Shown here: piece by piece, positions 24,222-50,863 of the stretch
Position numbering within the stretch: the first letter of the stretch is position 1
Layout: each line of letters opens with the position of its first letter
DNA from: a virus
Taxonomy: Duplodnaviria > Caudoviricetes
DNA: 52,536 nt
Direction: 5' to 3' (one strand)
Virus record (IMG/VR): IMGVR_UViG_3300047301_000210
Location: 1-52,536 of that record
Notes under the pieces: model-generated
Told to the model about the DNA's origin: nothing
The model's database searches: none
What the model saw: the letters and a program-made list of their open reading frames with translations, nothing else
Position numbers and translations under genes: made by a program

Positions 24222-24881
24222 ATGGCTCTTATTCCTTTGAATCCCGGCGTACAGCCGCTCGGCATTTTTGATATGAAGAACACCCAGGCTGCTGGCCTGC
24301 TCGGTGGTGAAGTAATGACGTTTGGTACGGCTTCCCGCACCAACAGCGCGTCTGAAAACGCCGCTGCTGACGTCACTGGCGACGGCTACGGTACCAACCG
24401 CACTGTTGCTCAGCTGGCCACGGCCTCTGTTGATTTCGTTGCTCTTTGCGACGAAGGCACCAGCCCCGGCTACTTCACCATGCTCGGTAGCGTCATCGGT
24501 GGTAACACTGGCATGACTCTCAGCGGCTCAGTCCTCGGTCCCAACACGACCGCTGGTTCTGGCAAGGTCACCCTGTGGGATAAGCCCGGTCTTTACGAGG
24601 TAACTCTTAACGCCGTTGCTGCTAGCTTCCAAGCTGGCGCTGGTCTCAATGGTCTTACCCCTGGCTCAGTCCTCGGTTACACCACTGCTGGCCTGCTTTC
24701 TCACAGCGTTGAGAACGGCGCAGTTGCTGCGACCGGTTGCGCGATCTTCGTTGAGTTTGCGGGTCCCTCCGGCCTCGTGACCACTCCTGCTTGGATCGTC
24801 GGCGGCACCAACACGGTTGACCGTGTAAAGGTTGCCTTCCTCGGCGGCGTCAAGAAGACCGTTCCTCTCACTTGCGTCTGA
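24222..24881 (+). CDS. capsid decoration/cement-like protein (paralog 2, high-expression codons)
   Basis: GAGG RBS, codon bias like the MCP gene, GSGKVTLW..PGLY motif, close to the MCP gene. Confidence 0.6.
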   Translation: MALIPLNPGVQPLGIFDMKNTQAAGLLGGEVMTFGTASRTNSASENAAADVTGDGYGTNRTVAQLATASVDFVALCDEGTSPGYFTMLGSVIGGNTGMTLSGSVLGPNTTAGSGKVTLWDKPGLYEVTLNAVAASFQAGAGLNGLTPGSVLGYTTAGLLSHSVENGAVAATGCAIFVEFAGPSGLVTTPAWIVGGTNTVDRVKVAFLGGVKKTVPLTCV

Positions 24882-24906
24882 GGTAAATCCAGCCTAGCTG
24901 GTATTC

Positions 24907-24941
24907 AAAAGGAGCTGGTTATGCCAGCTCTTTTTGTTTTT
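24907..24941 (+). terminator. intrinsic terminator
   Basis: AAAAG-GAGCTGG-ttatg-CCAGCTC-TTTTTGTTTTT. Confidence 0.85.
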
Positions 24942-24969
24942 CAAATATGGATTTTTAGATAGTTGGACA

Positions 24970-26956: not shown

Positions 26957-27002
26957 ATAGCCCTACCTGACTAAATAGTCTAGGGATATTCTAGCGACTG
27001 TA

Positions 27003-27037
27003 AAAACCTCCACAGGAAACTGTGGAGGTTTTATTTT
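27003..27037 (+). terminator. terminator hairpin that also sequesters the downstream RBS
   Basis: AAAACCTCCACAG-GAAA-CTGTGGAGGTTTT then ATTTT; GGAGG (27024-27028) lies in the 3' arm. Confidence 0.85.
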
Positions 27038-28724
27038 GTCCAGCGGTATATACGAGATACGTAACTCATTAAATAATCACATCTATATCGGGTCAACTAA
27101 GAATTTTTGCCAGCGATGGCAGCAGCATCGCCGGCTTTTGCAAAAGGGAGCTCACCACAGCAGGCATTTTGCAAATGCCTGGTTTCTCTGCGGCGAGGCC
27201 AGTTTCTTATTTGCGGAAATCGAGCAGGTCAACGACTTGCGACAGTTGATACCGGTAGAACAGCGGTATTTAGACGAGTTTAAGCCTGCGTATAATGTGA
27301 GAACCAAAGCAAGCAGACCTTCTGAAAGTGGCCATGATATTCCAGTTGAGCGCATCTCTCCATTAAATGGTGAAGTGGTAGAGTACCGATCTATCTCAGA
27401 GGCCGCCCAGGCCGGATTTGATTCGTCAGGTATTTGTGATAGCGCCTCTGGTCAAACTGCTTCTCACGCTAATTATTACTGGCGATTTTTGGATGGGCGG
27501 TCGGACGACTTGCCTGAATTCGATTATGAAAGAATATTTTACCCTGTTCGGGGAGTAAGGAAAACAGACGGACATGTCGTCGAATTGTCGTCCTATGATG
27601 ACTGCAATGCTGCTGGTTTCAATTATAGAAAGATTCGCGAATGTTGTGCTGGTCAACGGGGAAGGCGGGAGCACAAGGAATATTCCTGGACTTACATGGA
27701 TGTCCTGAGGCAAGCAGAGGAAGCTGCAAACCCTTGTTCTACATTCGAAGAGACATTCAACAAACCAGTTGAGCGAATCGACAAGAATGGCGAGATAACA
27801 AAGTATCCATCCATCAGCGCGACCTCAGAGGCTGGATTTACTCCCTCCAGTGTTGGAAAGTGTTGTCGCGGGGAAAGAGAGACTCATCGTGACGATAATT
27901 GGCGATTTGCTGATGGCAGCAGCCCTCAGTTTATCTCGAAACGTCCTGAAATAGAAATCAGTCAAATCTCTATCGAGACTGGCGAGTGCTTGCGGGTATG
28001 GCGCCGCCAGGCCGAGCTAGAAGAGGCTGGCTATAGTTATCCGACTGTGTGGGGTTGTATGGTTGGTGAAGTTGGTCATAAAACATATAAAAATAGCATT
28101 TGGCGCCGGGGCAATGTCTCTTTGTCTATGACAGAAGTTGAGGCAGTCCTTGATTCCAAGTATTCTGCTTTCTTCCGTGGTGTAGTGAGGCTCGACCCCA
28201 ATACTGGTGCTCGCAAGGAGTACGCGAGTCAAAGTGCGGTTGAGGCGGATGGATACCTGCAGGCAAAAGTGTCCCGGTGTTGCCTTGGAAAAGGGCGGAA
28301 ACACGCCGGATACTACTGGGAATTTCTTGATGGGAGCACTCCAGCAAATGCAAAGAACCGCATACGCAAAATCCCTAGCGTAACGCATACCTCGAATGGG
28401 AAGGAAATCCCTTATACCAAATACGCTGATTTGGCGAATGGTGGTTTTGACGTAGAATCAGTTCTGAGCATTTGTGAGGCTGGCGGCAATCAGGAGTGGC
28501 GCTTTTCTGATAAAACCCGAAAAACTACCGTGAATACAAATAAGCGCGTTTGTTTGCGTACTAACGCGGTGCAGGCAACAGCCTCTGACAGTACAACCAT
28601 ACTATACGCTTCGATGCACGAAGCTGCGCTGGGATGTGGCGGCACTACCGCTAAAATCCGGGAGTGCTGCATGGGTAAGCGCAAAACTCATGCTGGTTTT
28701 TCATGGAGCTTTGCAGAGAATTGA
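27036..28724 (+). CDS. free-standing GIY-YIG homing endonuclease with 7 NUMOD1-like repeats
   Basis: SGIYEIRN...IYIGST, R.QQH, EQRYLD and YN motifs, then repeated Y.S..EA...GF....I..CC.G.....GY.W.F units. TTG start. Confidence 0.9.
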   Translation: MSSGIYEIRNSLNNHIYIGSTKNFCQRWQQHRRLLQKGAHHSRHFANAWFLCGEASFLFAEIEQVNDLRQLIPVEQRYLDEFKPAYNVRTKASRPSESGHDIPVERISPLNGEVVEYRSISEAAQAGFDSSGICDSASGQTASHANYYWRFLDGRSDDLPEFDYERIFYPVRGVRKTDGHVVELSSYDDCNAAGFNYRKIRECCAGQRGRREHKEYSWTYMDVLRQAEEAANPCSTFEETFNKPVERIDKNGEITKYPSISATSEAGFTPSSVGKCCRGERETHRDDNWRFADGSSPQFISKRPEIEISQISIETGECLRVWRRQAELEEAGYSYPTVWGCMVGEVGHKTYKNSIWRRGNVSLSMTEVEAVLDSKYSAFFRGVVRLDPNTGARKEYASQSAVEADGYLQAKVSRCCLGKGRKHAGYYWEFLDGSTPANAKNRIRKIPSVTHTSNGKEIPYTKYADLANGGFDVESVLSICEAGGNQEWRFSDKTRKTTVNTNKRVCLRTNAVQATASDSTTILYASMHEAALGCGGTTAKIRECCMGKRKTHAGFSWSFAEN

Positions 28725-28812: not shown

Positions 28813-29070
28813 ATGAAAATTTCTGATTATGCAATTCTTCACTTAGATGAGAACCGGTTTCTCGAAGAGTTTCGGTTACTTTATCCGGAACTCTCCGATG
28901 AAGTACTATTGGCCGGAAGAGATGAAGCTAGATACATTGCCAAAGACAGGCACGGCGAAGATTTTGCTATTTCAAAAGCAATGCAAAGCGATAGTAGTCG
29001 TTTTGTGCTGATCTTTAGGGTCGGCTCCGGAAAATGGATATCGTACATTAGCCCCAGAAGGATAGCATGA
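28813..29070 (+). CDS. hypothetical protein (85 aa)
   Basis: GAGGG RBS before ATG 28813 (MKISDY); ATGA overlap with thyA. Confidence 0.65.
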   Translation: MKISDYAILHLDENRFLEEFRLLYPELSDEVLLAGRDEARYIAKDRHGEDFAISKAMQSDSSRFVLIFRVGSGKWISYISPRRIA

Positions 29071-29927: not shown

Positions 29928-29929
29928 AT

Positions 29930-32061: not shown

Positions 32062-33549
32062 TTGTCGAGTTACCAGCCAGAGTTTCATGAGCCGATTCTG
32101 ATCGTCAAAAACATCAGCCGAGATAGGGTTGATGTTCTTGGCGCAGTATCTCTTTTGCCCGGAGAGACTAGAGAGATATTCTCTAGTGCTATGCCTAGTA
32201 ACCGTGACGATCTACTTACTCGCGCCGCCAGAGAACTGACCCCTCCGAATGGACAGCTGTATCTCTCTGTAATGGCGGGAGCAGTTGAGGTTTTAGATTT
32301 TCGTATATGGGCCAACAGCGTAGATGAGACGCAGATCCGGACAAGTAATTCCACATTTCCAGGCGCAGTATTGGCGTTTGATGGAACCAACTTACTCTGG
32401 TCATCTCCTGGCGCTGCCGCCACTCCAGTGCAAGCTCCACTCGTTAATGACGGCATGTCTGTGTCGATCCCCCGGGCGACTGCACTGGCAGACGGGTATC
32501 TGTCCAAAGACGACTACCAGTATATTTTTGCTTCGATTCGGCGCAAACAGAGAATGTGGCAATATCAGGATTTTGCCGCCCCGCTCGGAACAAGCCTTGA
32601 GATAACTGCATTCCAAAATGGAACCGGTCTAACATTTGACCCTTCTTATGTGATTAACGATACGGCTGCGATTGTATTGCAGTCAGATCTTGATTCGCCA
32701 CCTCTATCGACGACGTCTTTTCCAGTAAGGCTATTGCCAGGTAGTCGCGTCAAGGTTTCGACGCATATTTCCGATACGGTAATCTTAAATCAGGCCCCGG
32801 CTGCAGCGTCTGCCTGCAGAGTGTACTTCTTAATCAGCCTGCCTGATGGAGTGCTTCCTCCCTATGATTATCAGGAGGCTCCTCAATTCCTAAAAAGTTC
32901 GCCCGGCGGACTGCTCGATGAAAACTACTTAAACCAAAATCAAGACGAGACGGCTTATGGAGTAAAGACATTTGCTCAGGCGATTCAACTTGATGATAGC
33001 TTTGTTTATCCGACCGGCGCCACGGATGGCTATACAATGTATAGCGATGCGACGGGAAAGGGCTATTGGGGTCCTGCCCCAGTCGGTGGTGGCGGTGGCG
33101 GCGGAGTAACCGACCCAGATTTACTTGTCTTCACAGAAATAAATCTGGTTGGCGGACAAACAATCACTTCAGTTGGAACAGAGTTAGTTTTTACCGACTC
33201 CACCGGGACTGCTTCGCTCACGACCCTTAAGTCAATGCGAAACGTGTGGGCAGACGGCTATGGGTATGGAGATCTGATCATTTCTGATGCCACAAATTGG
33301 GCAGCGACCTATACATATGTTTCTGCCGTACATGTTGCAAGCCCATCCACAGACTGGGACCTTTGGCTCTATGAAGATGCGTTCGTGAATGGGATAAAAA
33401 TAGCTAGTTTTGGAATGGGAACAATGACCGTTGATGTTGGGTTTGAATGTAACTCCATCGATACAAATATTAGATTGAGATACCTGTCGAATGATGGAAA
33501 TCTTTCTGCTGCATCCATTAGAGTCAGCGGAGAAGCGCGCAGACATTAA
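32062..33549 (+). CDS. putative virion (fibre-like) protein
   Basis: TTG start; fibre-type motifs GAVLAFDGTNLLW, YGVKTF and DATGKGYW; poly-Gly linker; 3 DGY. Confidence 0.7.
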   Translation: MSSYQPEFHEPILIVKNISRDRVDVLGAVSLLPGETREIFSSAMPSNRDDLLTRAARELTPPNGQLYLSVMAGAVEVLDFRIWANSVDETQIRTSNSTFPGAVLAFDGTNLLWSSPGAAATPVQAPLVNDGMSVSIPRATALADGYLSKDDYQYIFASIRRKQRMWQYQDFAAPLGTSLEITAFQNGTGLTFDPSYVINDTAAIVLQSDLDSPPLSTTSFPVRLLPGSRVKVSTHISDTVILNQAPAAASACRVYFLISLPDGVLPPYDYQEAPQFLKSSPGGLLDENYLNQNQDETAYGVKTFAQAIQLDDSFVYPTGATDGYTMYSDATGKGYWGPAPVGGGGGGGVTDPDLLVFTEINLVGGQTITSVGTELVFTDSTGTASLTTLKSMRNVWADGYGYGDLIISDATNWAATYTYVSAVHVASPSTDWDLWLYEDAFVNGIKIASFGMGTMTVDVGFECNSIDTNIRLRYLSNDGNLSAASIRVSGEARRH

Positions 33550-35738: not shown

Positions 35739-36485
35739 ATGGAAGAAAGCAGAAAACAAAGAATTCACACTTTTAGTGATGATCGCACTATCTCAATATG
35801 TATTTACTCAATTACAAATACAGCAAATGGTAAAATTTACATTGGGCAAACTACTCGCAAGGCTGGCAAAAGATGGGGCGCTCACTTGAGCGTTAAATCT
35901 GGAGCTGGAAAAAGCGCCATAAAATGTGCGATCACAAAGTACGGCAAAGATTCGTTTGCTTTTGCCGTTCTGGATACCGCTGAAAATCAAATTGATTTAG
36001 ACCTTAAAGAGATAGCTTGGATTAGCAAGCTTAACTCTGTTGCACCAAGCGGTTATAATTTAACTTATGGTGGGTCTAGTAAAAAAATATGTAGCGAAGA
36101 AACTCGCTCAAAAATGAGAGCGTCTGCCAGGGCTCGTTTTGAGCGCGAGGGGAGAACTGTTATTCCGGAAACAGAGGAAGAGCACGCCATTAGAAGGGCA
36201 GCCTGGGCTTTGGCGAGCAAAGAAAGACTTACTGGAAATACTTATCGCAGAGGTAAAAAAACTAGTCAAGAAGCAGTAGAGAAGATGAGAATTGCTAAAA
36301 CCGGTGTCCCTGTTCCCAAGAGATACAAACCAATAATTGGAAGCGATGGAAGCTCTTATCCCAGCATTAAACATGCTGTCGTGGAGATAGGCTGTAATCA
36401 TGCAACATTAATGAAGCACCTATCTGGTAAATTACAAACGGTTTATGGTATTGTGTATTCCTATGCATCAAGAGGTGGAATTTGA
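35739..36485 (+). CDS. free-standing GIY-YIG homing endonuclease with NUMOD3 motifs
   Basis: CIYSITN...IYIGQT, R...H, KEIAWI and PSGYNL; SEETRSKM and SQEAVEKM repeats; C-terminal HTH. AT-richer than its neighbours. Confidence 0.9.
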   Translation: MEESRKQRIHTFSDDRTISICIYSITNTANGKIYIGQTTRKAGKRWGAHLSVKSGAGKSAIKCAITKYGKDSFAFAVLDTAENQIDLDLKEIAWISKLNSVAPSGYNLTYGGSSKKICSEETRSKMRASARARFEREGRTVIPETEEEHAIRRAAWALASKERLTGNTYRRGKKTSQEAVEKMRIAKTGVPVPKRYKPIIGSDGSSYPSIKHAVVEIGCNHATLMKHLSGKLQTVYGIVYSYASRGGI

Positions 36486-39400
36486 GCACTTATGCTGTGA
36501 CCACATCCGTGAACATCGATAGCCTAGCTGCCAAGGCTGGGTCAGATACCTACAATATAAATGGTGGGTATCTGACTGTTGACCAAGATACCCGTTACGG
36601 CACAAATCAAAATACGAGTGCAGGCATGGGCAACATTGCCCTGTCTGCCACTCTTGGTGGCACCATTGAGTTCAATTCTACACTAGTTAGGATAATCCCG
36701 TATAATACGGGAACAGGAAACGTACCCGCCTACGGCACAACAATATCTTTAGGAGGGGCCAGCGGAATACTTCTCGGAGTTTACTCTGCGCTAAATGCTG
36801 TACCGACTGCCGTTGGCGTGGCAATGCCTGCCTCTGGATTCATAAAGATAAGACAGTGGAATAGTGTCGCCTATGCGGCAGGCGCCTTGACCGGCATTGG
36901 TGCGACTGCGACCGGCGTTGATCGCGCAGGATGGCTTGAGATTGTAGGTGTCGACGCACTTGCTTGTACGGTCAACCGCTTAAATACGTTCAAGGTGCGT
37001 GGAGACTGGTTTGACCTCGGCACGACCGATGGAACCAGAGCTACAACCTACCAGATTCCCTCTAATGGCGCAATCGTGTACCTACCTGGCGTATGGGTTG
37101 AAACAGGAACGTCAACAGGGATTTATGAATTCTATCCCTGTGCTGGCTCACTCACTGCTTTGGCTGCAAACGTAGCCACCGATGAAGTACGCGGACGTTT
37201 CTGCTGGATCTCTACGGCTGGACTCCTGCGATTTGGTCATGACGGAACAAACTTAACTGGCGGTTTCATTCCTGCTGCTGGACGCAAAGTAAGGATTCCC
37301 AATATCTTTTTCATGTGCTGCACATCTGCTGCGTTGACTGCAAACGTATTGCCCAACGCAACACTAGGCACTAGATACGAGTTTGCCACTACGGGTGGCG
37401 GCGTTATTGACATCGATAAAGCATCAGTTAATTGGTATTGCAACTTAAACCAGCCATACTCTGTAGCACTGAACAACACAGGTATTCTGACGAACTTGAC
37501 TGTTACTGAGTGCGCTGCTCCAATCACCTGGAGTCATGTCGGTGTCGGTCAGGAAGCTGCCGTAAGCACTTTCGGCCTTACGATGTCGTTATGCTTTGCT
37601 GGCGGCATAATTTCCAATTGTGTTTTTTCCCGTGCAACGCTCGCGGCGACAGGCCAATATGCTACTTCGATTGCAGATATTTCCGGCTTTACATTTACCA
37701 ATATCAGAGTACACTGCCTTGGTGGCGCAAGAGGCAACGCCACCACAGGATGTCAAACTCTGACCCGAGCCTCAAGCTGCACATGGACAAGTTGCTTGTT
37801 GGCGGGCGGAAGAAATCTACTTACGACATGCACGGACTGCACGTTCACGAATACAATTTATTATGATCACCCTGCGACAACTACCCCTGTAACAAATCCG
37901 CAATATTGCTTTGATCTAACCACAAATTGCCTTCGTGTTAAAGTTGACGGTTTAACTTTTGGCGGACTGACGTTATGTCAGCCTTATAGCGGAATTCTCA
38001 GCGTTGGTGCAGCCGGTTGCACCGATATTGATCTGAGAAACCTTGGCACCTACGCGGCCCCTCTTGACCTAGGCGGCGCACAACAGAATGCCACCTGGAC
38101 CCGCGCAACCACTACTGCGACAGCAACCAAGGTAGCGCATGGGCTTAAGGCTAATGACATTGTATATGTTCTTATTTCATCAGACGTTGCAGCAATAACC
38201 GTAGCATCGAAAACTGTAGCGACTGTTCCGACGGCAGATACTTTCACCTTTACGTGTCTAAACGCCGGTGCTGCATCAGGGACGCTCGTCTATTACCCTA
38301 CGATGAGTGCCTTGCTGTATACGTTGGCGACAGGTGCCGCCGCCAATAGTGTCAGAATTAAACGATGCTACACGCCTCACACCCGCACGAACCTTTCAAC
38401 AGAAGACAACTCTTCAAAAAATATAACGCTTGAAAGTGTTTATGGCGATTATATTGGTGTGCCGCTGACCCCAGCACTGAATAGAACAACGAAGGGTGTC
38501 GGCAGCACCCCATCACTGGCGGGACAAACCTCGTGCTATGGCACACACTGGATTGATGCTTTTATTGCAGCCGTGACCCCAAATCTCTCTGCGCAAGCTT
38601 GGACTCGGGCCACCACTACTGCGACTGTAACCTCGACCGCCCATGGCCTTAGAACGGGCCTGTTGATAAACGTTACCGTCACTAGCTCCGCAGCGGCAAT
38701 TGTCCTCGGGCAAAAAACAGTAACTGCTGTCACAGCCAACACCTTCACATTTACTTGTTTGAATGCAGGCTCTGCATCTGGCACTCTCACATTTGCTCCG
38801 CTCACGGGTCGTATTGGCCTTTTGATGAATGAATCAACCTCAGACACAGCCGATCAATACACTATTGATGCTGGTACAGCTGCCTTCACTAGTGCAGGCG
38901 GTCTCTACATGCCTGTGATCGCTGACCAAACAACATTCACCACTCCATATTCGATACTTGGTCATACCTACTTTCCTATCGCGGAAGCGGTAATGGCTGG
39001 TGGTACGATAGGCAACTACGATATCACGTATTCTATCGACAAAAACGATGGGGCTGGATACAGCGCATTCAAAAATCTCGCCTATCCTCGCGCAGGTGGT
39101 GGCGGAGCAAGTGCATCGACTAACGTAACTATGACGAGCACCACCGGCGTTGCAGCCGGCGATTACGTATGGGGTACAAATATTGCGCCTAACGCCAAGG
39201 TTGCTTCAATTACAAATAGCACCACGGTGGTTGTAGACATTGCAAATATTGGCGTAGTTTCCGGCGTACTCCGGTTCAGCCAATTGCCTAGTGAAACTTC
39301 GATAAATGCACAACTAGGAGTAAAGCTAAAGGTAAGGATTAAAACTACCACCACGAATGCGACAGCAATTACGTCGTTGTATTTCATTACCGATAGCACC

Positions 39401-40657
39401 GATGTTAGTCGCGCCTATCAGTATGTACTTGACCCTGTTGATACAACGGTGAGCGTCACCGATGCCGCAACCAATGCCGCTATAGCTAATGCCAGAGTGC
39501 TGCTGCTTGCCGCCAGTGGGGGAGATCTCCCCTATAACGAGAGTGTGACTATCGCTCTCGACGGTACCGATGGACTAACTTGTACGGTTACTCATACTGC
39601 ACATGGTTTAGAATCTGGAAACAAGGTTCTAATCAGAGGTGCGAATGACAAAATCTATAATGGCATTTTTGCGATCACAAAGCTAACCGACAATAGCTAT
39701 TCGTATGTCGCCAGCGGAGCCGTGACTGTTCCCGCACCGACCGGTAGGTATGATCCTGCGAGTGCATCAAATACTTATGTGTCAACCAAGATAAGCGTAT
39801 TGGCTGATTTGAGCGGAAATGGTCGCAATCTTATTCAGGCAGTCGATGCAACCAGGCCCGTTATATCTACCGATGCAACTCTCAGCAGAGATGTTATGGT
39901 ATTCTCAGGTGCTCAGCAGCTGACTCAGTCGGTGGAAAACTTTCACAATCTACTTGGAATTACAAATTGGACGGTTGTGCTTGAGGGACAGGTTACGTCT
40001 GCTCCTAATGCATTCTCCAATTACTGGGAAAACCCCACGTTCTTTGCAAGCGACGGGCAAGACTACTCTGTAGTCGCTCAAACAAGTTCTGATGTTATTC
40101 GGGCCAGGGTGGGTTATTTTGATGCAAGCTTTGTTGGACACACGCCTGCCTTGCAATCCCCCTTGTTTTTAAACAAGTGGTCGACAGTGAGCGATATAAA
40201 AAATGCCACTACTGACACGGTTGCTCTCGACGGATTAAGTGGTACGGCTGAGAACATCTCTGCGATCCCCAATCGCTTTTCTGCAGGAACCGAGCTTGCA
40301 GTCATTGGAAGAGGGTACTCGGGTACTGGCCTTAACTTCTTCACTGGAAAGATTGGACGGGTTAACCTGTATAACACAGCGCTTACGCAAGCGCAATTGG
40401 ATGTTGTGATCGCTGGCATGACAGCTTCTGCGACTGCGACCGGCACAGTGACCGCCACAGCGGTGATTATAGACGGCGAAACCGATGGGTATGGTCAAAT
40501 AACAGAGGTACGCTCGTTTTCTGGATTGACGCAGCCAGTTTCAGGAAGAGTCCGCAGGGCAACATCATCAACGATGTATAAAACTACAAACGTCACTGGA
40601 ACAGTTAGCTCTGCTTCGGGAGTGACTCTTAACGTGCAATTAATCCAGGATTCATAA
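36482..40657 (+). CDS. large tail fibre/spike-like protein with beta-helix, repeated beta modules and a LamG-like domain
   Basis: 1391 aa, Thr/Ala/Gly-rich. Cys/Asn-laddered region, repeated AHGL modules, and LADLSGNGRN...FTGKIGRVNLYNTALT (LamG/ConA-like). Confidence 0.8.
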   Translation: MSTYAVTTSVNIDSLAAKAGSDTYNINGGYLTVDQDTRYGTNQNTSAGMGNIALSATLGGTIEFNSTLVRIIPYNTGTGNVPAYGTTISLGGASGILLGVYSALNAVPTAVGVAMPASGFIKIRQWNSVAYAAGALTGIGATATGVDRAGWLEIVGVDALACTVNRLNTFKVRGDWFDLGTTDGTRATTYQIPSNGAIVYLPGVWVETGTSTGIYEFYPCAGSLTALAANVATDEVRGRFCWISTAGLLRFGHDGTNLTGGFIPAAGRKVRIPNIFFMCCTSAALTANVLPNATLGTRYEFATTGGGVIDIDKASVNWYCNLNQPYSVALNNTGILTNLTVTECAAPITWSHVGVGQEAAVSTFGLTMSLCFAGGIISNCVFSRATLAATGQYATSIADISGFTFTNIRVHCLGGARGNATTGCQTLTRASSCTWTSCLLAGGRNLLTTCTDCTFTNTIYYDHPATTTPVTNPQYCFDLTTNCLRVKVDGLTFGGLTLCQPYSGILSVGAAGCTDIDLRNLGTYAAPLDLGGAQQNATWTRATTTATATKVAHGLKANDIVYVLISSDVAAITVASKTVATVPTADTFTFTCLNAGAASGTLVYYPTMSALLYTLATGAAANSVRIKRCYTPHTRTNLSTEDNSSKNITLESVYGDYIGVPLTPALNRTTKGVGSTPSLAGQTSCYGTHWIDAFIAAVTPNLSAQAWTRATTTATVTSTAHGLRTGLLINVTVTSSAAAIVLGQKTVTAVTANTFTFTCLNAGSASGTLTFAPLTGRIGLLMNESTSDTADQYTIDAGTAAFTSAGGLYMPVIADQTTFTTPYSILGHTYFPIAEAVMAGGTIGNYDITYSIDKNDGAGYSAFKNLAYPRAGGGGASASTNVTMTSTTGVAAGDYVWGTNIAPNAKVASITNSTTVVVDIANIGVVSGVLRFSQLPSETSINAQLGVKLKVRIKTTTTNATAITSLYFITDSTDVSRAYQYVLDPVDTTVSVTDAATNAAIANARVLLLAASGGDLPYNESVTIALDGTDGLTCTVTHTAHGLESGNKVLIRGANDKIYNGIFAITKLTDNSYSYVASGAVTVPAPTGRYDPASASNTYVSTKISVLADLSGNGRNLIQAVDATRPVISTDATLSRDVMVFSGAQQLTQSVENFHNLLGITNWTVVLEGQVTSAPNAFSNYWENPTFFASDGQDYSVVAQTSSDVIRARVGYFDASFVGHTPALQSPLFLNKWSTVSDIKNATTDTVALDGLSGTAENISAIPNRFSAGTELAVIGRGYSGTGLNFFTGKIGRVNLYNTALTQAQLDVVIAGMTASATATGTVTATAVIIDGETDGYGQITEVRSFSGLTQPVSGRVRRATSSTMYKTTNVTGTVSSASGVTLNVQLIQDS
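38096..38788 (+). repeat. duplicated ~64-aa module (38096-38287 and 38600-38788); diverged third copy near 39581-39710
   Basis: WTRATTTATxTxxAHGL...KTV...TFTFTCLNAGxASGTL. Confidence 0.9.
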
Positions 40658-40894: not shown

Positions 40895-42055
40895 ATGGCG
40901 ATCTCCATTGATTGGCTAAATAAGGTAATAAATGTCCCGCGGGCGGATATGTTGCTGATTCAAACCGTTCCAAGCGAGATTCGCCAATTGGATATCGATT
41001 CCTTTCGACTTGATCTCAAGGACTTGGAAGACAATACCGACGGCATGGTCTTCCAAGACACTCACCGGCACAATACCACTGTTACGGTAGGTGGAGCGGT
41101 GCTGGCCCGTGTTGTAGAAATCATAAATGGATATACTGTTACATTTGAAGACGGACAATATGCCGTCAACCTTGTTGGTGCAAACTCAAATATTGGCGAC
41201 GTCACGAACGTAAATCAGGTATCTGTTCGTTCATCGAACTCCGCTGGTCTTCAGGACTTGAACTCACTGCAGGCGGCTTCGTTTGCAAACAGCGTCACAA
41301 TAAATACCGGTAGCGCCTACACAGGAACATTATTTCCCATTGGTACAAGGCAGTACCCTGTCAACAATATGGCTGATGCACTTGCAATCGCAAACAACAG
41401 AGGGCTGAAGACATTCTCTGTGGCGTCAAACCTGACACTGTCGGCAGGGGACTTCTCAAATAGCTTCCGATTTGTAGGCGACAACATCAATATCGCGGTT
41501 ACAATTGATGGGTACGCCGACGTAACCAATTGCGAATTCAACGCCGTAACAATCACAGGGACACTTGACAACAACAATCTGTTTAAAGGCTGCGTTGTTG
41601 GCGACATGACTCATGTCAATGGAATACTTCACAACTGCGGGCTCAGAGGAGTTATTTCTGTTGCGGGTACAAACACCGCAGTCCTTCTTGATTGTTATTC
41701 CATTCTTGAAGATCAAAACAGCAGCGAACTACCAAGACTAGATATGACATCCGTCAATGGGGATGTTGCGATCAGAGGTTTTAATGGGGAGCTGCATGTC
41801 GCAAATGCAACCAACCCTGACGCCGTAGTCAGCATTGACTTCAATGCTGGTCAGCTCCATATGAAGTCAAGTTCGACTGCTGGAACGTTTATCGTGAGAG
41901 GTGTGTGCGAGCTTGTAACAAATGGAAGCACTGCAACACTCATAGATAAAACATTGCAGACCGCAATTCCCACAAATACCTGGGATAAAACAGTATCGAA
42001 TATAAGTGCGCCAGGTTCAATTGGAGAAAAGATTCGCAAAAATCTGCCGCGTTAA
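40895..42055 (+). CDS. virion protein with beta-helix-like repeats
   Basis: AGGAG RBS, 386 aa, Asn/Cys ladders (TNCEF, KGCVV, HNCGL, LDCYS). Confidence 0.75.
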   Translation: MAISIDWLNKVINVPRADMLLIQTVPSEIRQLDIDSFRLDLKDLEDNTDGMVFQDTHRHNTTVTVGGAVLARVVEIINGYTVTFEDGQYAVNLVGANSNIGDVTNVNQVSVRSSNSAGLQDLNSLQAASFANSVTINTGSAYTGTLFPIGTRQYPVNNMADALAIANNRGLKTFSVASNLTLSAGDFSNSFRFVGDNINIAVTIDGYADVTNCEFNAVTITGTLDNNNLFKGCVVGDMTHVNGILHNCGLRGVISVAGTNTAVLLDCYSILEDQNSSELPRLDMTSVNGDVAIRGFNGELHVANATNPDAVVSIDFNAGQLHMKSSSTAGTFIVRGVCELVTNGSTATLIDKTLQTAIPTNTWDKTVSNISAPGSIGEKIRKNLPR

Positions 42056-44370: not shown

Positions 44371-45255
44371 ATGGCGATAAGTTTCTATCAAAGAGCAGCT
44401 GTTCCACCTGGAGCTAAAATCAGGCTTGAGGTACAGTTTCGCGATTCTGCCGGTATTGCCCGGGACGCAGACTCGTCTCCAACAATTACCATTAATGATG
44501 CGGCCAACACCTCTATCGTCAGCACTACTGTTGGAGTTCTTAGAACTGGAGAGGGGCTCTATCGTTATGATCTAACGATTCCAGATATTGTCGTGGATGG
44601 AACCTGGAGAGATACCTGGACAGCTGCAATCGATGGTTACGCCAACATTACTACATTTGACTTCAATGTACTAACGCCTGGCACTATTGAGGCTGTTGGC
44701 AGCGGAGTAACAAAGCCCGAGATGCAGATCGGGGATGATCCAATTATTTCATTTACTCAAGAAGAGACTTATGGCATCAATATGCTTATGAAGTTGCTTC
44801 GTTTTCGTTTGCGAAACACACAGATTATGCCGAATGGATCTAGGTGCGATATCCTATCTATTGCCGACATGCAAAGCTTTCTATGGTTGGCGCTGAGCGA
44901 GTTCAATGCGACTCCAACATTTACTGGCTATTTCTTTAGTGATGTCCCAATCTACACCACGTTCTCTGACATCATTGTTGAAGGCGCGTACTTAAAGGCA
45001 CTTCCTTCAATTATTCCTGCTGAAACAGGAAGAGAATGGGTTGCGACCGATGATGGGATCAATATTACTCCTGCTAGTGTCAGCAGTGCGCTAAGTGGCA
45101 TTCTTGGTCAGCTATATACTGAGTATAGAGCAAAGATTAAAGAGGCTAAGCGCAACCACCGCCCAGCTCCCTTGGGAATGGGTGCCGGTCAGCTTGCGGT
45201 TGCAAACCCAGCTTACCGAAAAGTTCGTAATATCCGTGTATTCGGAGTTTTCTGA
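44371..45255 (+). CDS. putative neck/head-tail adaptor with N-terminal Ig-like domain
   Basis: GGAG RBS. Beta-sandwich N-domain (G.YRY...P...DGTW.D.W) and a helical C-domain (LALSEFNATP). The function is inferred from layout and position. Confidence 0.5.
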   Translation: MAISFYQRAAVPPGAKIRLEVQFRDSAGIARDADSSPTITINDAANTSIVSTTVGVLRTGEGLYRYDLTIPDIVVDGTWRDTWTAAIDGYANITTFDFNVLTPGTIEAVGSGVTKPEMQIGDDPIISFTQEETYGINMLMKLLRFRLRNTQIMPNGSRCDILSIADMQSFLWLALSEFNATPTFTGYFFSDVPIYTTFSDIIVEGAYLKALPSIIPAETGREWVATDDGINITPASVSSALSGILGQLYTEYRAKIKEAKRNHRPAPLGMGAGQLAVANPAYRKVRNIRVFGVF

Positions 45256-46667: not shown

Positions 46668-46674
46668 GGCGATA

Positions 46675-48720
46675 ATGCTGGCACCCGTATGGACAGATCA
46701 AAATTTGCCAGGACTCCGGTCTGCTAGAGAGAATATAGCAGACGGTTCTATACATTTGTCAATAACTACTGCTCTACCATCTGCCGCAGGCCTAACTGTA
46801 TCGTATTTCATATACGCCGGGCCCACCACCCCTGATCCTGTTCCTTACTTTATTGTGTTCGACACTGAAGTCGATATTCCAAATACTATTTTTGACATCG
46901 ACTGGCAAACTGGTAACAATTGGGCCTACAAAGTTACTGCATCCAATGGGGCGATCTCTGGGCCAAATGGATTGACAGAGGTTGCTCCAGGAGTTTATCT
47001 ATTTCCTCTTGAGCTTCAACTTGCGAATAGCTTTTCATTAGGCGACACAGAGATGATGGTAGGTCTAGAGCCGGGGTACCCTCCTGCGGGAAAGCTGACA
47101 ACAGAAGCTGGCAACATCTTCTCGTATGACGGTTATGTCTTAGGCGTTGGCCCACTCACAGGCACAATGTCTCTGTTAAATATAGTCCAAGGACTTGAAG
47201 GGACAGCTCTTTTGCCAGATTTTTTTCCTGACAGGGAGTTGTTATTTCTTTGGAAGGGCGGAGAAGCCCAAGCAAACATAGTGACAGCAATTCCTTCTTG
47301 TGGGCTGACAAAACCAGCATGGATCGATCAAAGGCATATCGGCCTAGAGAGAGTCGAGGACTTGGGCGATGGATATAGTGTAAATCTTTTTTGGGATTTT
47401 GCCACTGCTCCTGATGGCTTCAGCGAACCATACTATAACGTATATACCTCTTCGTCGACATATCAGCTTTATTCCGGGCCACCGCACTCGTTCGCAGCAG
47501 GATCGCCTGTGAGGCTCTCTGGCTTCCGACCTGACGCAGGGTACTCTTTCGGCGTCAGAGCCTCCTATTTTCTGGCTGACTTCGCTACAGAGGGCATGCA
47601 GACTGTGTCTGGTGCGACACGCTACCCAACCAAAACGCAGCTGACGGCCGATTTGATCGCAGCCGCTCTGTCGACAATAGATGTTGGCTCTACAGCGGGC
47701 TACCCCAATTCAGGTCTGCTCGTCATTGGCCGAGAGGTCGTAAGGTATTCATCTAAAACGGCCACATCGTTTGTTCTTAGCGGAAGAGATGTATTTGGTA
47801 TTGGAAGGTCTGAAGATTTGCCGGCCGGAACATCTATAGAGATGTTTCGAGGAGTTGAAGAGCAAAACCCTTATTTTTGGAGGATGACGACCAGTTGGGA
47901 TTCCACTGGTGTTGGCGCAATTCCAATTCCTTTTGTGGACGGCTATTTCGAAAATCTATATCTTCAAGATAACGATGGTTATCGACACATCCCTATTGCG
48001 GATTTCAACGAGAATCACGATAATGTCATTACTGATGCTGCGGCTGCAGATCCATACAATTACTGTGGATTGCGAAACAATGACCCCTCTCAGTTTCTAG
48101 GCGGAGCTTATTGCGCTCCCAACACCGTTCATGGCACTGGAAGCTACCATGGCAACAGTATGCTAGGGCAGGCCGGTGGTATCGACATATTCGAAGGAAA
48201 TCTTGCAAGACAGGAACTCCTATTGGGCGTCACTGGTGAGCCATTTGTTTTGCTTAGAAGGAAATGGACAGGAAAGACTTGCCCACGTACATCTCATCGA
48301 AATGAACATCCTGACGGAAGATGTGCACTTTGTTTTAGCACTTCTTTCGAAGGTGGGTATGACCGCTTCATCAATACAAGATTGATTCGCCCATCTGAGG
48401 CAAACTCCAATGGGTTTGTGCAAATGAGAGTAACTCCATATGCAGACGAAGTAGATCTTATCGACACTCGAGGTTTTTCCCTAGAGAAAACAGACATCTC
48501 TGCATGGCTACCCGCAATTCCGACTATACGGGATCGAGACATTTTGATTCGGTATACTTTTGATTTTGAATCAAAAATCTATGCGGAAGAGTTTCGATAT
48601 GAGGTTCTTACGGTCAGGCGTAATAAGATAAACCTAGGAAAGGATGGAGCACAACATATAACAATGAAGCGTCTTAACGTGACAGAAGAAATATACAAAT
48701 TTCCAGTCAATTTGATTTGA
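46675..48720 (+). CDS. virion protein: FN3/Ig-like domains plus putative neck/head-closure C-domain with Zn finger
   Basis: V.L.W..A......YNVY...Y.F.VRA FN3 pattern; GEPFVLLRRKWTGKTC...CALC...GGY; 4 DGY. Confidence 0.6.
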   Translation: MLAPVWTDQNLPGLRSARENIADGSIHLSITTALPSAAGLTVSYFIYAGPTTPDPVPYFIVFDTEVDIPNTIFDIDWQTGNNWAYKVTASNGAISGPNGLTEVAPGVYLFPLELQLANSFSLGDTEMMVGLEPGYPPAGKLTTEAGNIFSYDGYVLGVGPLTGTMSLLNIVQGLEGTALLPDFFPDRELLFLWKGGEAQANIVTAIPSCGLTKPAWIDQRHIGLERVEDLGDGYSVNLFWDFATAPDGFSEPYYNVYTSSSTYQLYSGPPHSFAAGSPVRLSGFRPDAGYSFGVRASYFLADFATEGMQTVSGATRYPTKTQLTADLIAAALSTIDVGSTAGYPNSGLLVIGREVVRYSSKTATSFVLSGRDVFGIGRSEDLPAGTSIEMFRGVEEQNPYFWRMTTSWDSTGVGAIPIPFVDGYFENLYLQDNDGYRHIPIADFNENHDNVITDAAAADPYNYCGLRNNDPSQFLGGAYCAPNTVHGTGSYHGNSMLGQAGGIDIFEGNLARQELLLGVTGEPFVLLRRKWTGKTCPRTSHRNEHPDGRCALCFSTSFEGGYDRFINTRLIRPSEANSNGFVQMRVTPYADEVDLIDTRGFSLEKTDISAWLPAIPTIRDRDILIRYTFDFESKIYAEEFRYEVLTVRRNKINLGKDGAQHITMKRLNVTEEIYKFPVNLI

Positions 48721-48730
48721 GAGAAATACT

Positions 48731-50863
48731 ATGGCAACACAATATCCTTCTAACATTGACACGACTGGCACACTTCCATATGTTGTCGATGGCGTTACTC
48801 CCATATTGGGCTCTAACGTCAACACTCTTCGAGATGCAATTGTTGCAATAGAGACCGAGCTGGGCCCAAATCCCAGCGGAGGAACATCTACTACTGTCAG
48901 CGACAGGATCGGTGTACTTGAAGGAGTTGTTGCTGGCTTTGCCCCAGAGGCAGCCTCATATCTTGTTTTAGGTGGATCGATCTCTCTAAGTAACGAGAGG
49001 ATTTTTTCTATTGGGACCGGACTTGTTGGCATTGACAGTGGCGCGGATTCAACGTACACCATCGAACTTGGTCATAGCGGAGTTGTTGCCGGCGTATATC
49101 CGTCGTCAGGGGTCTCTGTAGATGGATATGGCAGAATTACAAATGTTTCTTCTAGTGTGAATGCAGCTACTGCTGGAGTGTATCCGTTTGCAGAGATAAC
49201 TATCGATGGGTACGGGCGCATTACCGACATAACGTCTGGCGCGACTGGGCAGGCAAACACACTACCTTATTGGGTAGATGCTGACACGCTGTCTTATGAT
49301 GGATATGTTCATGTTTTTGGAGATGGCCGCCTGTCACTAAGCCGACCTCAGAATGCACCGACAAAAATTATTGTTGCCAATGAAAGCACGGGCTCATCGG
49401 CAAGCTCTGTGCTTGAGCTGCTTTCTTTTGATGGATATGGCGTCAGACTTTCTTCTTTTCCTGATGGATATTCTGGTTTTGGATTTTCTTTTAACGAGCA
49501 CAGTGGCTTTCTAGAATCGGACACTACATTGGTTCTATCTGCGCGCCCAGGTCCAGTGTATGCTGGCACGGTCTATTTGGCATCGAACTTTCTGGGGTTG
49601 TTAGGGAAAAACAGTAGCCCATGGGCAAGTGTCGAGATTCAAGAAGATACGATTAACGTCAAAAATAAATATTCGTCAAATCTGTACAGTTCTGCCTCGA
49701 TGAATCCATCGCTCAGTGCCCTTTCGGTATGGGGAAGAATAACACTTGGTACAACCGCTGTTGATGACGGATATGGTGTCTCTATTGAGACGACTGATGA
49801 TCTTGCAATTGCTGCGCTTGGCCCAGAGTTGATGATAATGTCAAATTATGCCACTGCATCAAACATCGCGACCGTTTCCGTTGGGGCGATAGACGGAAAC
49901 GGACCGCAAAATAATTCAGCGTGGGTTGATCGTTTCCATGCCTCTGCTGGTCATGTTAAAAAGATTGCCGAATTCACATATGACTCAATTGCAGGAAAGT
50001 CTCAAATGATTCTGGGAGCAACTAGTTCGTTGGCGCAGCTGTTGCTAGGAACAGGGACGGGCGCTTTGCCGGCCTATTCGTTTGTTGGTAATTCAGGGTC
50101 AGGGCTGTCGAGCAGCCCCGGAGGTATGATTGTGTCCGCCGATGGGTACACAGTTGCTGTCATAGACAAAGAGTATTTGACTACTCTTAATCTTGGAAGT
50201 ATGACGAATGGCGTAGCAAACATAAAACTCGCAGAAGGCACGGAGAGCTTTCCAGCTTATGGCTTTTTCCCCGATATTACCTCTGGGTTGTATCGATCTG
50301 CTGCCGACCAAATGGCGATCTCGACTCTCGGTGTCAAGCGCGCGCATGTCGACGCAAACTCTCTCACCACTACTGTTCCGGTTTTGGTTTCATCTGGCAG
50401 TTCTTCTGCGCCATCTCATGGATTTTCGGCGGAAACAAACACCGGATTCTTTAGATCTGAGGCCGGATCAATAGGAATGGCCTTACTTGGCAATGTATCG
50501 CGGAGTGTCTCCGCCACTCTGACCACGACTAATGACACTACAACAACAATTATGTCGATATCTACTTCGTCAAACAGGGCATACCACATCAATTACCGGT
50601 TGGTTGCAAGATCAACGGCTGGCAGCAATGATAATGCTGTACTAACTGGCACTGTAAGAGCAATAAATAAAGCGGGGGTGCTCACGGTAGAGAAAACAGA
50701 ATTCGCTGCGGACTCGGATACGACCCTGGCGGGGTGGCCTGTCGCCGGTAGCATTCTTACCGTAACTACTTCTAGCACAACTATACTTATTCAGGTTGAT
50801 GGACCTGAAAGCCCAGGCGGAGATACTGATTGGCTAATTTTTGCAGACATATTGACTGTCTAA
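48731..50863 (+). CDS. tail fibre-like protein
   Basis: N-terminal YP..ID...N.LRDAIVAIETELG.NP anchor; two AGVYP...xDGYGRIT repeats (49088 and 49172); three G....P...F.....G repeats (~50048-50480); 7 DGY. Confidence 0.75.
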   Translation: MATQYPSNIDTTGTLPYVVDGVTPILGSNVNTLRDAIVAIETELGPNPSGGTSTTVSDRIGVLEGVVAGFAPEAASYLVLGGSISLSNERIFSIGTGLVGIDSGADSTYTIELGHSGVVAGVYPSSGVSVDGYGRITNVSSSVNAATAGVYPFAEITIDGYGRITDITSGATGQANTLPYWVDADTLSYDGYVHVFGDGRLSLSRPQNAPTKIIVANESTGSSASSVLELLSFDGYGVRLSSFPDGYSGFGFSFNEHSGFLESDTTLVLSARPGPVYAGTVYLASNFLGLLGKNSSPWASVEIQEDTINVKNKYSSNLYSSASMNPSLSALSVWGRITLGTTAVDDGYGVSIETTDDLAIAALGPELMIMSNYATASNIATVSVGAIDGNGPQNNSAWVDRFHASAGHVKKIAEFTYDSIAGKSQMILGATSSLAQLLLGTGTGALPAYSFVGNSGSGLSSSPGGMIVSADGYTVAVIDKEYLTTLNLGSMTNGVANIKLAEGTESFPAYGFFPDITSGLYRSAADQMAISTLGVKRAHVDANSLTTTVPVLVSSGSSSAPSHGFSAETNTGFFRSEAGSIGMALLGNVSRSVSATLTTTNDTTTTIMSISTSSNRAYHINYRLVARSTAGSNDNAVLTGTVRAINKAGVLTVEKTEFAADSDTTLAGWPVAGSILTVTTSSTTILIQVDGPESPGGDTDWLIFADILTV

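What the first reader, a model, noticed from the sequence alone, without database searches (positions are those of the whole stretch)
24381..50149. DGY tripeptide across outer virion proteins: candidate modification sequon or surface tag
Seen: Asp-Gly-Tyr occurs 18 times in predicted external structural proteins. Positions: 24381 (decoration); 32491, 33025, 33253; 40484; 41507; 44632; 47128, 47368, 47938, 47974; 49121, 49205, 49298, 49430, 49463, 49766, 50141. The 17 after 32 kb lie in about 4,000 aa, where typical residue frequencies predict roughly one (my rough estimate). Codons vary (GAT/GAC, all four Gly codons, TAT/TAC) and most flanks are unrelated, so this is not a DNA repeat. I saw none in portal, protease/scaffold, MCP or the internal-protein candidates; single incidental hits occur in the intein and one endonuclease. 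Inference: convergent selection for a short motif in exposed turns, as expected for an enzyme recognition site (Tyr glycosylation, phosphorylation, nucleotidylation or cross-linking) or a docking or metal-binding site coating the virion. The kinase-like gene (24970) and the altered NTase (3260) are speculative candidate writers; the enzyme could also lie outside this window.
Basis: partly seen in the sequence, partly recalled or inferred. Interest (0 to 1): 0.9.

Follow-up and report, generated by a model that had tools for sequence, protein, structure and literature searches.

The report
DGY turn motif in huge-phage tails
The tripeptide Asp-Gly-Tyr is many times over-represented in the tail proteins of this fragment of a huge phage and of its relatives, and it keeps arising anew at different positions, so it looks like a selected surface motif whose job is still unknown.

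Summary
All 18 coordinates are right. ORFs starting after 32 kb hold 17 DGY against 1.18 expected from composition (P 1.6e-14). No other tripeptide survives correction, and DGF, NGY and EGY are not enriched.

The window is a fragment, about 14% by CheckV's estimate. Complete relatives are 372-452 kb. In 68 related tail loci DGY is the most enriched tripeptide: 851 observed against 59 expected, 14-fold. Control tail modules of T4, lambda, Mu and T5 give 2.5-fold. Unrelated beta-rich fn3 proteins give 2.4-fold.

In one baseplate-module family DGY occupies 39 alignment columns; the next tripeptide occupies 17. Tandem DGY arrays occur in relatives and widely in viral contigs.

Convergent selection for a self-contained motif is supported. 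Its function is not resolved. My best guess is an exposed Asp-Gly turn that presents Tyr as a multivalent contact site. A Tyr-modification sequon remains open: a GT4-type glycosyltransferase lies within two genes downstream of large DGY-bearing proteins in 4 of 4 complete relatives.

The parts
48731..50863 (+). Fibre-like protein, 710 aa, with 7 DGY (nt 49121, 49205, 49298, 49430, 49463, 49766, 50141; aa 131, 159, 190, 234, 245, 346, 471). Its N-terminal ~60-70 aa are an anchor shared with many 500-2000 aa fibre or spike proteins of relatives.
   Evidence: 7 observed against 0.16 expected; homologs P0002 and P0003 (~35% identity) keep DGY at 131, 159, 190 and 346. P0004 has VDAKGRLT at the first site. 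N-terminal anchor matches 40 ORFs in 31 loci. No Pfam or PHROG family. The AF2 model is unusable (pLDDT 35).
46675..48720 (+). Conserved baseplate-module protein, 681 aa, with N-terminal fn3-like domains. It has 4 DGY (nt 47128, 47368, 47938, 47974; aa 152, 232, 422, 434).
   Evidence: 4 observed against 0.20 expected. D434-G435-Y436-R437 are invariant in 23 homologs; D422 and G423 are nearly or fully invariant. Homologs carry 3-10 DGY each; relatives found in 68 viral loci. AF2 pLDDT 74; DGY152 and DGY232 lie between beta strands; 422 and 434 lie in a low-confidence segment; fn3 only.
32062..33549 (+). Structural protein of unknown family, 495 aa, with 3 DGY (nt 32491, 33025, 33253; aa 144, 322, 398).
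   Evidence: 3 observed against 0.14 expected. D322-G323-Y324 are invariant in 13 homologs down to 30% identity. G145 is invariant and Y146 nearly so. Site 398 lies in a variable C-terminal part.
36482..40657 (+). Large tail protein, 1391 aa, with a weak concanavalin-A-like (Laminin_G_3) match. It has 1 DGY at nt 40484 (aa 1335), in the context DGYGQIT.
   Evidence: The Laminin_G_3 match scores 23.6 bits, below the 27.6 cut-off.
40895..42055 (+). Protein of 386 aa with 1 DGY at nt 41507 (aa 205), in the context IDGYADVT.
   Evidence: shares a 22-residue local match around the DGY with ORF 44371.
44371..45255 (+). Conserved tail-module protein, 294 aa, with 1 DGY at nt 44632 (aa 88).
   Evidence: homologs in 55 of 68 loci; across 48 unique sequences the aligned site reads NGF 19, NGY 6, DGY 4, DGF 3 and others. 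It is an ancestral [ND]G[FY] turn that reads DGY only in the window and in three of the closer loci (L004, L005, L008).
24210..24881 (+). Gly-rich protein of 223 aa upstream of the MCP, with 1 DGY at nt 24381 (aa 58).
   Evidence: expected 0.02. No family.
7635..7643 (+). Incidental DGY inside the intein/LAGLIDADG part of the large terminase ORF 6243-9185.
28248..28256 (+). Incidental DGY in the homing-endonuclease ORF 27036-28724.

Best explanation
DGY is a self-contained surface motif that selection maintains in the tail and baseplate proteins of a clade of huge phages.

Shown: its excess, its specificity, its clade-wide spread, its repeated gain, and its tandem arrays.

Inferred mechanism: Asp-Gly makes a tight turn between two beta strands and pushes the Tyr side chain outward. 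The Asp carboxylate and the Tyr hydroxyl act as a pair and form a small, generic contact site. Copy number is tuned from single turns to arrays of 3-10 units. This would give weak multivalent binding to host-surface polysaccharide or to partner virion proteins. No enzyme is required for this reading.
For: 1. Excess and specificity. In the window: 17 against 1.18, with DGF, NGY, EGY and DGW not enriched. In 845 unique ORFs of 68 related loci: 851 against 59.1, with DGF 1.28x, NGY 0.69x, EGY 1.05x. P(Y | D-G) is 0.34, against 0.015-0.12 after any other residue plus Gly. Asp and Tyr are therefore selected together, and Phe will not do.

2. Not a general beta-turn effect. Controls give 2.5x (18 against 7.2). 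The T4 145-165 kb region that holds fibre genes 34-38 has 0. The 84 lower-ranked hits, many of which match only through the fn3-like region, give 2.4x and P(Y|DG) 0.08. The 66 top-ranked hits give 20x and P(Y|DG) 0.51.

3. Repeated gain. DGY occupies 39 distinct alignment columns in 55 homologs; the next tripeptide occupies 17. The states it replaces are one-step neighbours such as DGS, DGT, DAY and DGF. At one homologous turn the residues run NGF to DGY in the loci closest to the window.

4. No flank consensus in 452 non-redundant sites.

5. Tandem arrays of variable copy number sit between conserved flanks. A single folding turn cannot explain these.

6. Position. DGY152 and DGY232 lie between strands in a confident fn3-like model. 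The carrier proteins have fn3, ConA-like, dockerin and pectate-lyase-like parts typical of external tail proteins.
Against: No ligand, structure or binding datum exists.

In fibre proteins of relatives, 120 of 141 DGY lie in the N-terminal half and none in the last tenth. That is away from the usual receptor-binding tip. It fits inter-protein or shaft contacts better than receptor recognition.

Some sites are invariant core positions, for example DGYR at aa 434 and aa 322. These may be purely structural.

Tyr within DGY is no more conserved than other Tyr residues.

The two best-conserved sites of ORF 46675 fall in a low-confidence part of the model. The fibre model is unusable. Exposure is therefore shown only from secondary structure, for two sites.

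Counts across loci are not phylogenetically independent.
Confidence: 0.35

Rival explanations
1. DGY is a modification sequon. A phage-encoded glycosyltransferase, or another writer, modifies the Tyr (or Asp) on exposed turns and arrays. This would resemble the way serine-rich repeat adhesins are glycosylated by a GT4-family enzyme encoded next to them (that analogy is recalled, not tested here).
For: A short motif that ignores its flanks, requires the Tyr hydroxyl (DGF is not enriched) and is multiplied into arrays is what an enzyme recognition site looks like.

Glycos_transf_1 genes are present in 4 of 4 complete relatives. One orthologous GT (369-387 aa, 25-44% identity) lies on the same strand downstream of orthologous large DGY-bearing proteins. 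It is immediately downstream in G001 and G003, and one or two small genes away in G005 and G004. Those large proteins carry dockerin, ConA-like or pectate-lyase-like parts.

An HMM built from the four GTs finds orthologs in 4 of 118 DGY-array loci, 0 of 68 baseplate loci and 0 of 6 control loci. A GT2 gene lies one small gene away from a 1223-aa fibre with 7 DGY in G004.
Against: Nothing links the GT to protein, to Tyr or to DGY.

The synteny is one inherited arrangement, not four independent ones.

That block has no homolog in the window. It lies tens of kb from the baseplate module, which is just as DGY-rich.

No Pkinase, Fic or Sulfotransfer_3 was found in 5 of 5 records searched. No writer-like family was found in the window.

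I know of no GT4 enzyme that glycosylates Tyr (recalled, not searched).

Invariant core sites, and the NGF-type ancestry of site 44632, are not sequon-like.
Confidence: 0.2
2. DGY is only a structural turn. This lineage has drifted towards one preferred tight beta-turn with an aromatic residue on the next strand. There is no function beyond folding or stability. Asp replaces Asn because Asn-Gly deamidates in long-lived particles; that chemistry is recalled, not tested.
For: The sites lie between strands (weakly). Several are invariant core positions.

Controls already show a mild 2.5-fold excess.

Site 44632 is a variant of an ancestral [ND]G[FY] turn. At one conserved column DGY alternates with [SA]GF.

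The sites are concentrated in shaft-side halves of the fibres.
Against: It does not explain tandem arrays such as DGYDGYDGY or (DGYx)n of variable length.

It does not explain the ten-fold coupling of Asp with Tyr, nor the exclusion of Phe and Trp.

It does not explain why unrelated beta-rich proteins lack the excess.
Confidence: 0.25
3. DGY is a cation site. Asp carboxylate and Tyr phenolate or backbone carbonyl, at positions i and i+2, bind Ca2+ or Fe3+. In trimeric fibres this might occur on the axis, by analogy with the His-x-His iron sites of the T4 gp37 tip (recalled).
For: The two ligand-capable residues are coupled. HxH tripeptides are also enriched in the same loci: HTH 9.6x, HNH 5.4x, HSH 4.3x. 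Dockerin/EF-hand type Ca2+ loops occur in neighbouring large proteins. Lys is depleted around DGY, although that was measured against a global background.
Against: There is no DxDxDG or EF-hand pattern in the flanks. Gly is obligatory in the middle (DAY 1.15x, DSY 1.38x), which points to a turn rather than to an i/i+2 strand pair. Two sites sit in monomeric fn3-like hairpins. No metal data exist.
Confidence: 0.1
4. The excess is chance, a composition effect, or the result of counting one duplicated segment many times.
For: Two of the 17 sites are a tandem duplicate and two share a short local match.
Against: 0 of 20,000 shuffles reached 17; the maximum was 7. With 14 independent sites and an inflated background, P is 2.8e-6. 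All 68 of 68 related loci show a 7-25-fold excess.
Confidence: 0.01

Closest known systems
His-x-His motifs of the T4 long-tail-fibre tip (gp37), which bind iron on the trimer axis (recalled; no paper read here)
   Same: Both are very short motifs recurring many times in phage fibre proteins, with two chemically active side chains at i and i+2. HxH tripeptides are themselves enriched in the related loci.
   Different: DGY needs Gly in the middle and sits at turns. It is not periodic, and it occurs in non-homologous proteins and in tandem arrays. No metal is shown. The T4 145-165 kb region that holds genes 34-38 contains no DGY.
DUF5907 (PF19264) and YD/Rhs-like hairpins of the 'V-D-x-x-G-R-I-T' type in tail fibres (consensus recalled)
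   Same: Three window sites read VDGYGRIT, IDGYGRIT and DGYGQIT. A distant homolog has VDAKGRLT at the aligned place. DUF5907 is present in a relative's fibre and in a homolog of ORF 32062.
   Different: The window fibre does not reach any Pfam model. Only 3 of 17 sites have this context. In this lineage the two free positions of the hairpin tip have become Gly-Tyr.
Glycosylation of serine-rich repeat adhesins by a GT4-family enzyme encoded beside them, and virion glycosylation in mycobacteriophages and chloroviruses (all recalled)
   Same: Both have short repeated acceptor-like motifs on surface proteins and a GT4-type glycosyltransferase gene next to the carrier genes. The latter holds for relatives only.
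   Different: No modification is shown. The candidate acceptor would be Tyr, not Ser, Thr or Asn. The GT block is absent from the window.
Tyr/Gly/Asp/Ser-rich binding loops of antibodies and minimalist synthetic binders (recalled)
   Same: The composition is the same, and exposed loops of variable length sit on beta-sandwich scaffolds. The only weak PDB match to ORF 32062 is an scFv, at its DGY322 region (E 0.2; not significant).
   Different: There is no homology. DGY is a fixed word rather than a composition bias, and many sites are conserved rather than hypervariable.

Membership tests
DUF5907 (PF19264) tail-fibre repeat | Match to the Pfam model at or above its gathering score | tested here: not met
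   no family for ORF 48731 or ORF 32062 at E <= 0.01. The family is present in a relative's 1223-aa fibre (49.2 bits against a cut-off of 27) and is precomputed for P0054.
YD / Rhs repeat | Match to a Pfam YD/Rhs repeat model; repeated YDxxGR[LI][IT] units (consensus recalled) | tested here: not met
   One search lists no YD/Rhs family for any of the 10 tail proteins. Only two adjacent VDGYGRIT units plus one DGYGQIT occur.
EF-hand / dockerin type DxDxDG calcium loop | Asp/Asn at positions -4 and -2 before D-G, and a hydrophobic residue two places after Gly (pattern recalled) | tested here: not met
   on 452 non-redundant sites: Asp is not among the top-enriched residues at -4 or -2 (at most 1.4x at any upstream position), and there is no dominant I/L/V after Tyr. 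True dockerin loops do occur elsewhere in neighbouring proteins.
Fibronectin type III domain (N-terminal part of ORF 46675 family) | Pfam fn3 match over the cut-off, or an fn3 fold | tested here: met
   Homolog P0025 scores 29.1 bits on PF00041 against a cut-off of 25. Foldseek of the AF2 model returns only fn3 tandem structures, best E 2.1e-6. The window protein itself has no Pfam hit.
Protein-glycosylation system with a dedicated glycosyltransferase | A glycosyltransferase gene conserved next to the carrier genes | tested here: inconclusive
   Met in 4 of 4 complete relatives. Not present in the window, which is a 14% fragment.
Protein-glycosylation system with a dedicated glycosyltransferase | A covalent glycan on the motif residue | not testable with these tools
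   This needs mass spectrometry of virions or of co-expressed proteins.
Tyrosine kinase, sulfotransferase or Fic writers | Presence of a Pkinase, Sulfotransfer_3 or Fic gene in the phage | tested here: not met
   0 of 5 records for each family, 4 of them complete genomes. Host enzymes were not examined.

The most novel reading that the evidence does not exclude
DGY is a tyrosine-directed modification sequon, for instance O-glycosylation by the conserved GT4-type enzyme. It would be used by a whole clade of huge phages to decorate tail and fibre proteins. Tandem (DGYx)n arrays would act as high-density acceptor tracts. That would be the first sequon-defined Tyr modification of phage virions.
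Probability: 0.17. Interest if true: 0.9.

Novelty: new variant of a known kind. Interest (0 to 1): 0.7.

Why it matters
Phage fibres are known to carry short recurrent motifs such as HxH, collagen-like triplets and hairpin repeats. A single tripeptide is different here. It is enriched 14-20-fold across non-homologous tail proteins of a clade of 370-450 kb phages. It is gained again and again at new positions and multiplied into arrays.

Five full-text searches found no phage-related description of it (listings only). If it marks a contact or modification site, it would give a simple sequence handle. That handle could be used to find the exposed, functionally tuned surfaces of uncultured huge-phage tails, for which no family, structure or host is known. 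It would also point to a specific, testable enzyme-substrate pair: the conserved glycosyltransferase and its neighbouring array-bearing proteins.

Tried and rejected
DNA-level motif: rejected. All 20 + strand matches are in frame, with none out of frame.

Chance or composition: rejected.

General beta-turn bias: tested with T4, lambda, Mu, T5 and P-TIM40 tail regions and with fn3-only hits. It explains about 2.5-fold, not 14-20-fold.

Relatives of fibre ORF 48731: none found in viral, metagenome or genome contig scans. Only three protein homologs were found.

Cultured relatives: blastn of 44-51 kb found none. tblastn of ORF 46675 found only a 46-residue match in cyanophage P-TIM40. tblastn of an array-bearing segment from L077 found none.

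Solved structures: nothing beyond fn3. The ESM Atlas returned only viral 'hypothetical protein' clusters.

AF2 of the fibre gave pLDDT 35 and is unusable.

Known DGY family: Pfam on 9 array proteins gave none.

Kinase, Fic and sulfotransferase searches were negative.

Conservation of DGY residues against other D, G and Y residues was not decisive.

Supplementary files were not consulted and no paper was read beyond search listings.
Full report
**1. What the window is**

All long ORFs lie on the + strand. The window is the whole held record. CheckV rates it 14% complete, so it is a fragment of a much larger phage genome.

Recognisable genes:
- large terminase interrupted by an intein/LAGLIDADG segment (6243-9185)
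- portal (9186-11051)
- a 1283-aa protein with a prohead-protease segment (13911-17762)
- major head protein (25952-26956)
- homing endonucleases (27036-28724, 35739-36485, 42851-43141)
- thymidylate synthase and DHFR (29067-30385)
- an M23 peptidase (11471-12064)
- a patatin-like phospholipase (42067-42876)
- a tRNA-nucleotidyltransferase-type protein (3260-3964)

The proteins after 32 kb have almost no family matches. There is no nucleotide match among 50,697 phage records.

**2. The observation**

The 19 ORFs after 32 kb total 6,625 aa. They hold 17 DGY against 1.18 expected from each protein's own composition. Poisson P is 1.6e-14, or 1.3e-10 after correcting for 8000 tripeptides. The next tripeptide reaches only 1.5e-5. 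In the 10,345 aa before 32 kb nothing survives correction. None of 20,000 within-protein shuffles exceeded 7.

The word is sharply specific: DGF 2, DGW 0, NGY 1, EGY 2.

At DNA level the degenerate 9-mer occurs 20 times on the + strand, always in frame, and twice on the - strand. Codons vary. The signal is therefore in the protein.

**3. It is a property of a clade**

The 681-aa protein of ORF 46675 has 34 database homologs. In an alignment of 23 of them, DGY434 and R437 are invariant and D422/G423 nearly so. Each homolog carries 3-10 DGY where about 0.2 is expected.

A scan of viral contigs found 68 loci encoding relatives at 26-53% identity. Five of the source records were examined and are 372-481 kb. 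All five are rated complete; three have terminal repeats, one is classed linear and one a provirus.

Every one of the 68 loci shows a 7-25-fold DGY excess (1,021 against 70.8). After removing identical ORFs there are 845 ORFs and 321,381 aa. In this set DGY is the most enriched tripeptide: 851 against 59.1, or 14.4-fold. DGF is 1.28x, NGY 0.69x, EGY 1.05x and DGW 0.66x. Tyr follows Asp-Gly in 34% of cases, against 1.5-12% after any other residue plus Gly.

Gene order around ORF 46675 is conserved. Homologs of ORF 44371 occur in 55 loci and of ORF 46185 in 60. The N-terminal ~60-70 residues of fibre ORF 48731 match 40 ORFs in 31 loci, most of them 500-2000 aa.

**4.

The structural regions of T4, lambda, Mu and T5 give 18 DGY against 7.2 expected, which is 2.5-fold. 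P-TIM40 gives 1.45-fold. The T4 145-165 kb region that holds fibre genes 34-38 gives none. Tyr follows Asp-Gly in 7% of cases.

A profile search of 1.84 billion representative proteins gave a second control. The 66 best hits (E <= 1e-49) hold 250 DGY against 12.4, which is 20-fold, and 45 of the 66 have three or more. The 84 lower hits include many large proteins that match only through the fn3-like region. They hold 61 against 25.3, which is 2.4-fold, with Tyr after Asp-Gly in 8%.

A favoured turn therefore accounts for about 2.5-fold. The rest is specific to this lineage. With the expectation raised 2.5-fold, the window's P is 1.7e-8.

**5. Conservation and turnover**

Fibre homologs at ~35% identity keep four of the seven sites. 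A more distant homolog reads VDAKGRLT where the window reads VDGYGRIT.

In the ORF 32062 family, DGY322 is invariant in 13 sequences and site 144 nearly so.

In 55 unique homologs of ORF 46675, DGY occupies 39 different alignment columns. The next tripeptides occupy 17. Five columns are widely conserved and 34 are held by six sequences or fewer. Of the column triplets held by six sequences or fewer, 29 lie in indel-rich or variable regions and 8 in well-aligned ones. The alternative states there include one-step neighbours such as DGS, DGT, DGL and DAY.

At the ORF 44371 site the family reads NGF 19, NGY 6, DGY 4, DGF 3 of 48. DGY occurs only in the window and in three of the closer loci. Existing turns are thus being converted to DGY in this sub-lineage.

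Flanks of 452 non-redundant sites show no extended consensus. Gly, Val and Trp are mildly favoured after Tyr, and Pro is excluded there.

**6. Tandem arrays**

Relatives carry runs of DGY. Examples are ten DGY in a 176-aa ORF (L068), six in a row within a 1254-aa ORF of G003, and five in a 156-aa ORF. Spacings of 3, 4 and 5 residues are the commonest.

The contigs range from 5 to 473 kb. These hold 96 distinct array ORFs:
- 27 large proteins of at least 600 aa
- 22 Gly/Tyr/Asp-rich low-complexity proteins
- the remainder smaller proteins

The large ones also carry 116 scattered DGY against 14.1 expected. Several share conserved flanks with different numbers of units. Pfam finds ConA-like and dockerin domains in them but no family for the arrays.

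**7. Where the motif sits**

The AF2 model of ORF 46675 has pLDDT 74 and consists of fn3-like domains followed by a C-terminal domain. Foldseek returns only fn3 tandems. DGY152 lies between strands 148-152 and 154-156. DGY232 lies in the loop between strands 224-229 and 235-240. Sites 422 and 434 fall in a low-confidence stretch. The fibre model is unusable at pLDDT 35.

In 33 anchor-bearing fibre proteins of relatives, 120 of 141 DGY lie in the first half and none in the last tenth. These proteins are homologous to one another, so the count is not independent.

**8. Candidate writers**

No other window ORF matches a modifying enzyme. Pkinase, Fic and Sulfotransfer_3 are absent from the window and from four complete relatives.

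Glycos_transf_1 is present in 4 of 4 complete relatives. One orthologous gene encodes 369-387 aa at 25-44% identity. It lies on the same strand downstream of orthologous 650-1470-aa DGY-bearing proteins, directly in G001 and G003 and one or two small genes away in G005 and G004. Three of those large proteins in G003 carry dockerin, ConA-like or pectate-lyase-like parts.

An HMM built from these four GTs finds orthologs in 4 of 118 array loci, 0 of 68 baseplate loci and 0 of 6 controls. The block has no counterpart in the window. This is one inherited synteny, and nothing ties the enzyme to Tyr. It is a lead, not evidence.

**9. Reading**

Shown: a protein-level, lineage-specific, cooperatively selected Asp-Gly-Tyr word. 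It is repeatedly gained and amplified, and it is confined to tail-module proteins.

Inferred: it forms a tight turn that presents Tyr, with Asp as its partner.

I rank the explanations as follows:
- a multivalent contact site needing no enzyme: 0.35
- a purely structural lineage habit: 0.25
- a modification sequon: 0.20
- a cation site: 0.10

Arrays, Asp-Tyr coupling and the exclusion of Phe argue against the purely structural reading. The proximal location and the invariant core sites argue against a receptor-tip paratope.

**10. Novelty**

Five full-text searches found nothing relevant on a DGY motif or repeat in phages (listings only, no paper read, supplements closed). Comparisons with HxH sites, YD-like hairpins, serine-rich adhesin glycosylation and antibody loops rest on recall.

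I file this as a new variant of a known kind, namely the short recurrent motifs of phage fibres. There is a minority chance that it marks a new virion modification.

Noticed in passing
window 1-52536: The record is rated 14% complete. Its relatives are 372-481 kb phage genomes, several with terminal repeats. The window is thus a fragment of a huge phage. Its tail proteins match almost no PHROG or Pfam family.
   Followed up: partly
window 6243-9185; P0016, P0028, P0038: The large terminase carries an intein/LAGLIDADG insert. Some homologs of the baseplate-module protein (ORF 46675 family) also carry Hint and LAGLIDADG domains.
   Followed up: no
window 27036-28724, 35739-36485, 42851-43141: Three homing-endonuclease-type genes (HNH and GIY-YIG) are scattered through the structural module. 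The small HNH has homologs in 23 of 68 related loci.
   Followed up: no
window 29067-30385: Thymidylate synthase and dihydrofolate reductase genes sit between the head and tail genes.
   Followed up: no
window 42067-42876: A patatin-like phospholipase (89.7 bits) is encoded inside the tail module. It may be a virion-associated membrane-active enzyme.
   Followed up: no
L009, L011, L014-L017 and other loci; homologs of ORF 46675: The shorter, more distant members of this family carry three conserved G-H-x-H or P-H-x-H motifs that the window protein lacks. HTH, HNH and HSH are 4-10-fold enriched in the related loci.
   Followed up: partly
G001 313990-315153; G003 133055-134164; G004 365715-366854; G005 359318-360442: An orthologous GT4-type glycosyltransferase lies on the same strand downstream of large dockerin-, ConA-like- or pectate-lyase-like proteins in four complete huge-phage genomes. 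It is immediately adjacent in G001 and G003 and one or two small genes away in G005 and G004.
   Followed up: partly
L084, L104, L106, L112, L116, L119, L127, L132, L137, L138, L147-L149, L154-L156: Small viral ORFs are made almost wholly of Gly/Asp/Tyr repeats of the GDGY/GYG type. 22 of the 96 array ORFs are more than 50% G+Y+D. Their nature is unknown.
   Followed up: no
L103, L115, L152, L120: Some viral proteins are built of pentapeptide-like units of the D-G-Y-[DN]-x type. One has 48 DGY in 1713 aa and a sub-threshold match to Pfam 'Decapeptide repeat region'.
   Followed up: no
L069 1186-4356 (-), L092: Dockerin type I / EF-hand calcium loops occur in large phage structural proteins that also carry DGY arrays.
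   Followed up: no
window 48731-48940 and 31 related loci: A conserved ~60-70-residue N-terminal segment is shared by many different fibre or spike proteins of one genome. This suggests a common docking module for a branched set of tail appendages.
   Followed up: partly
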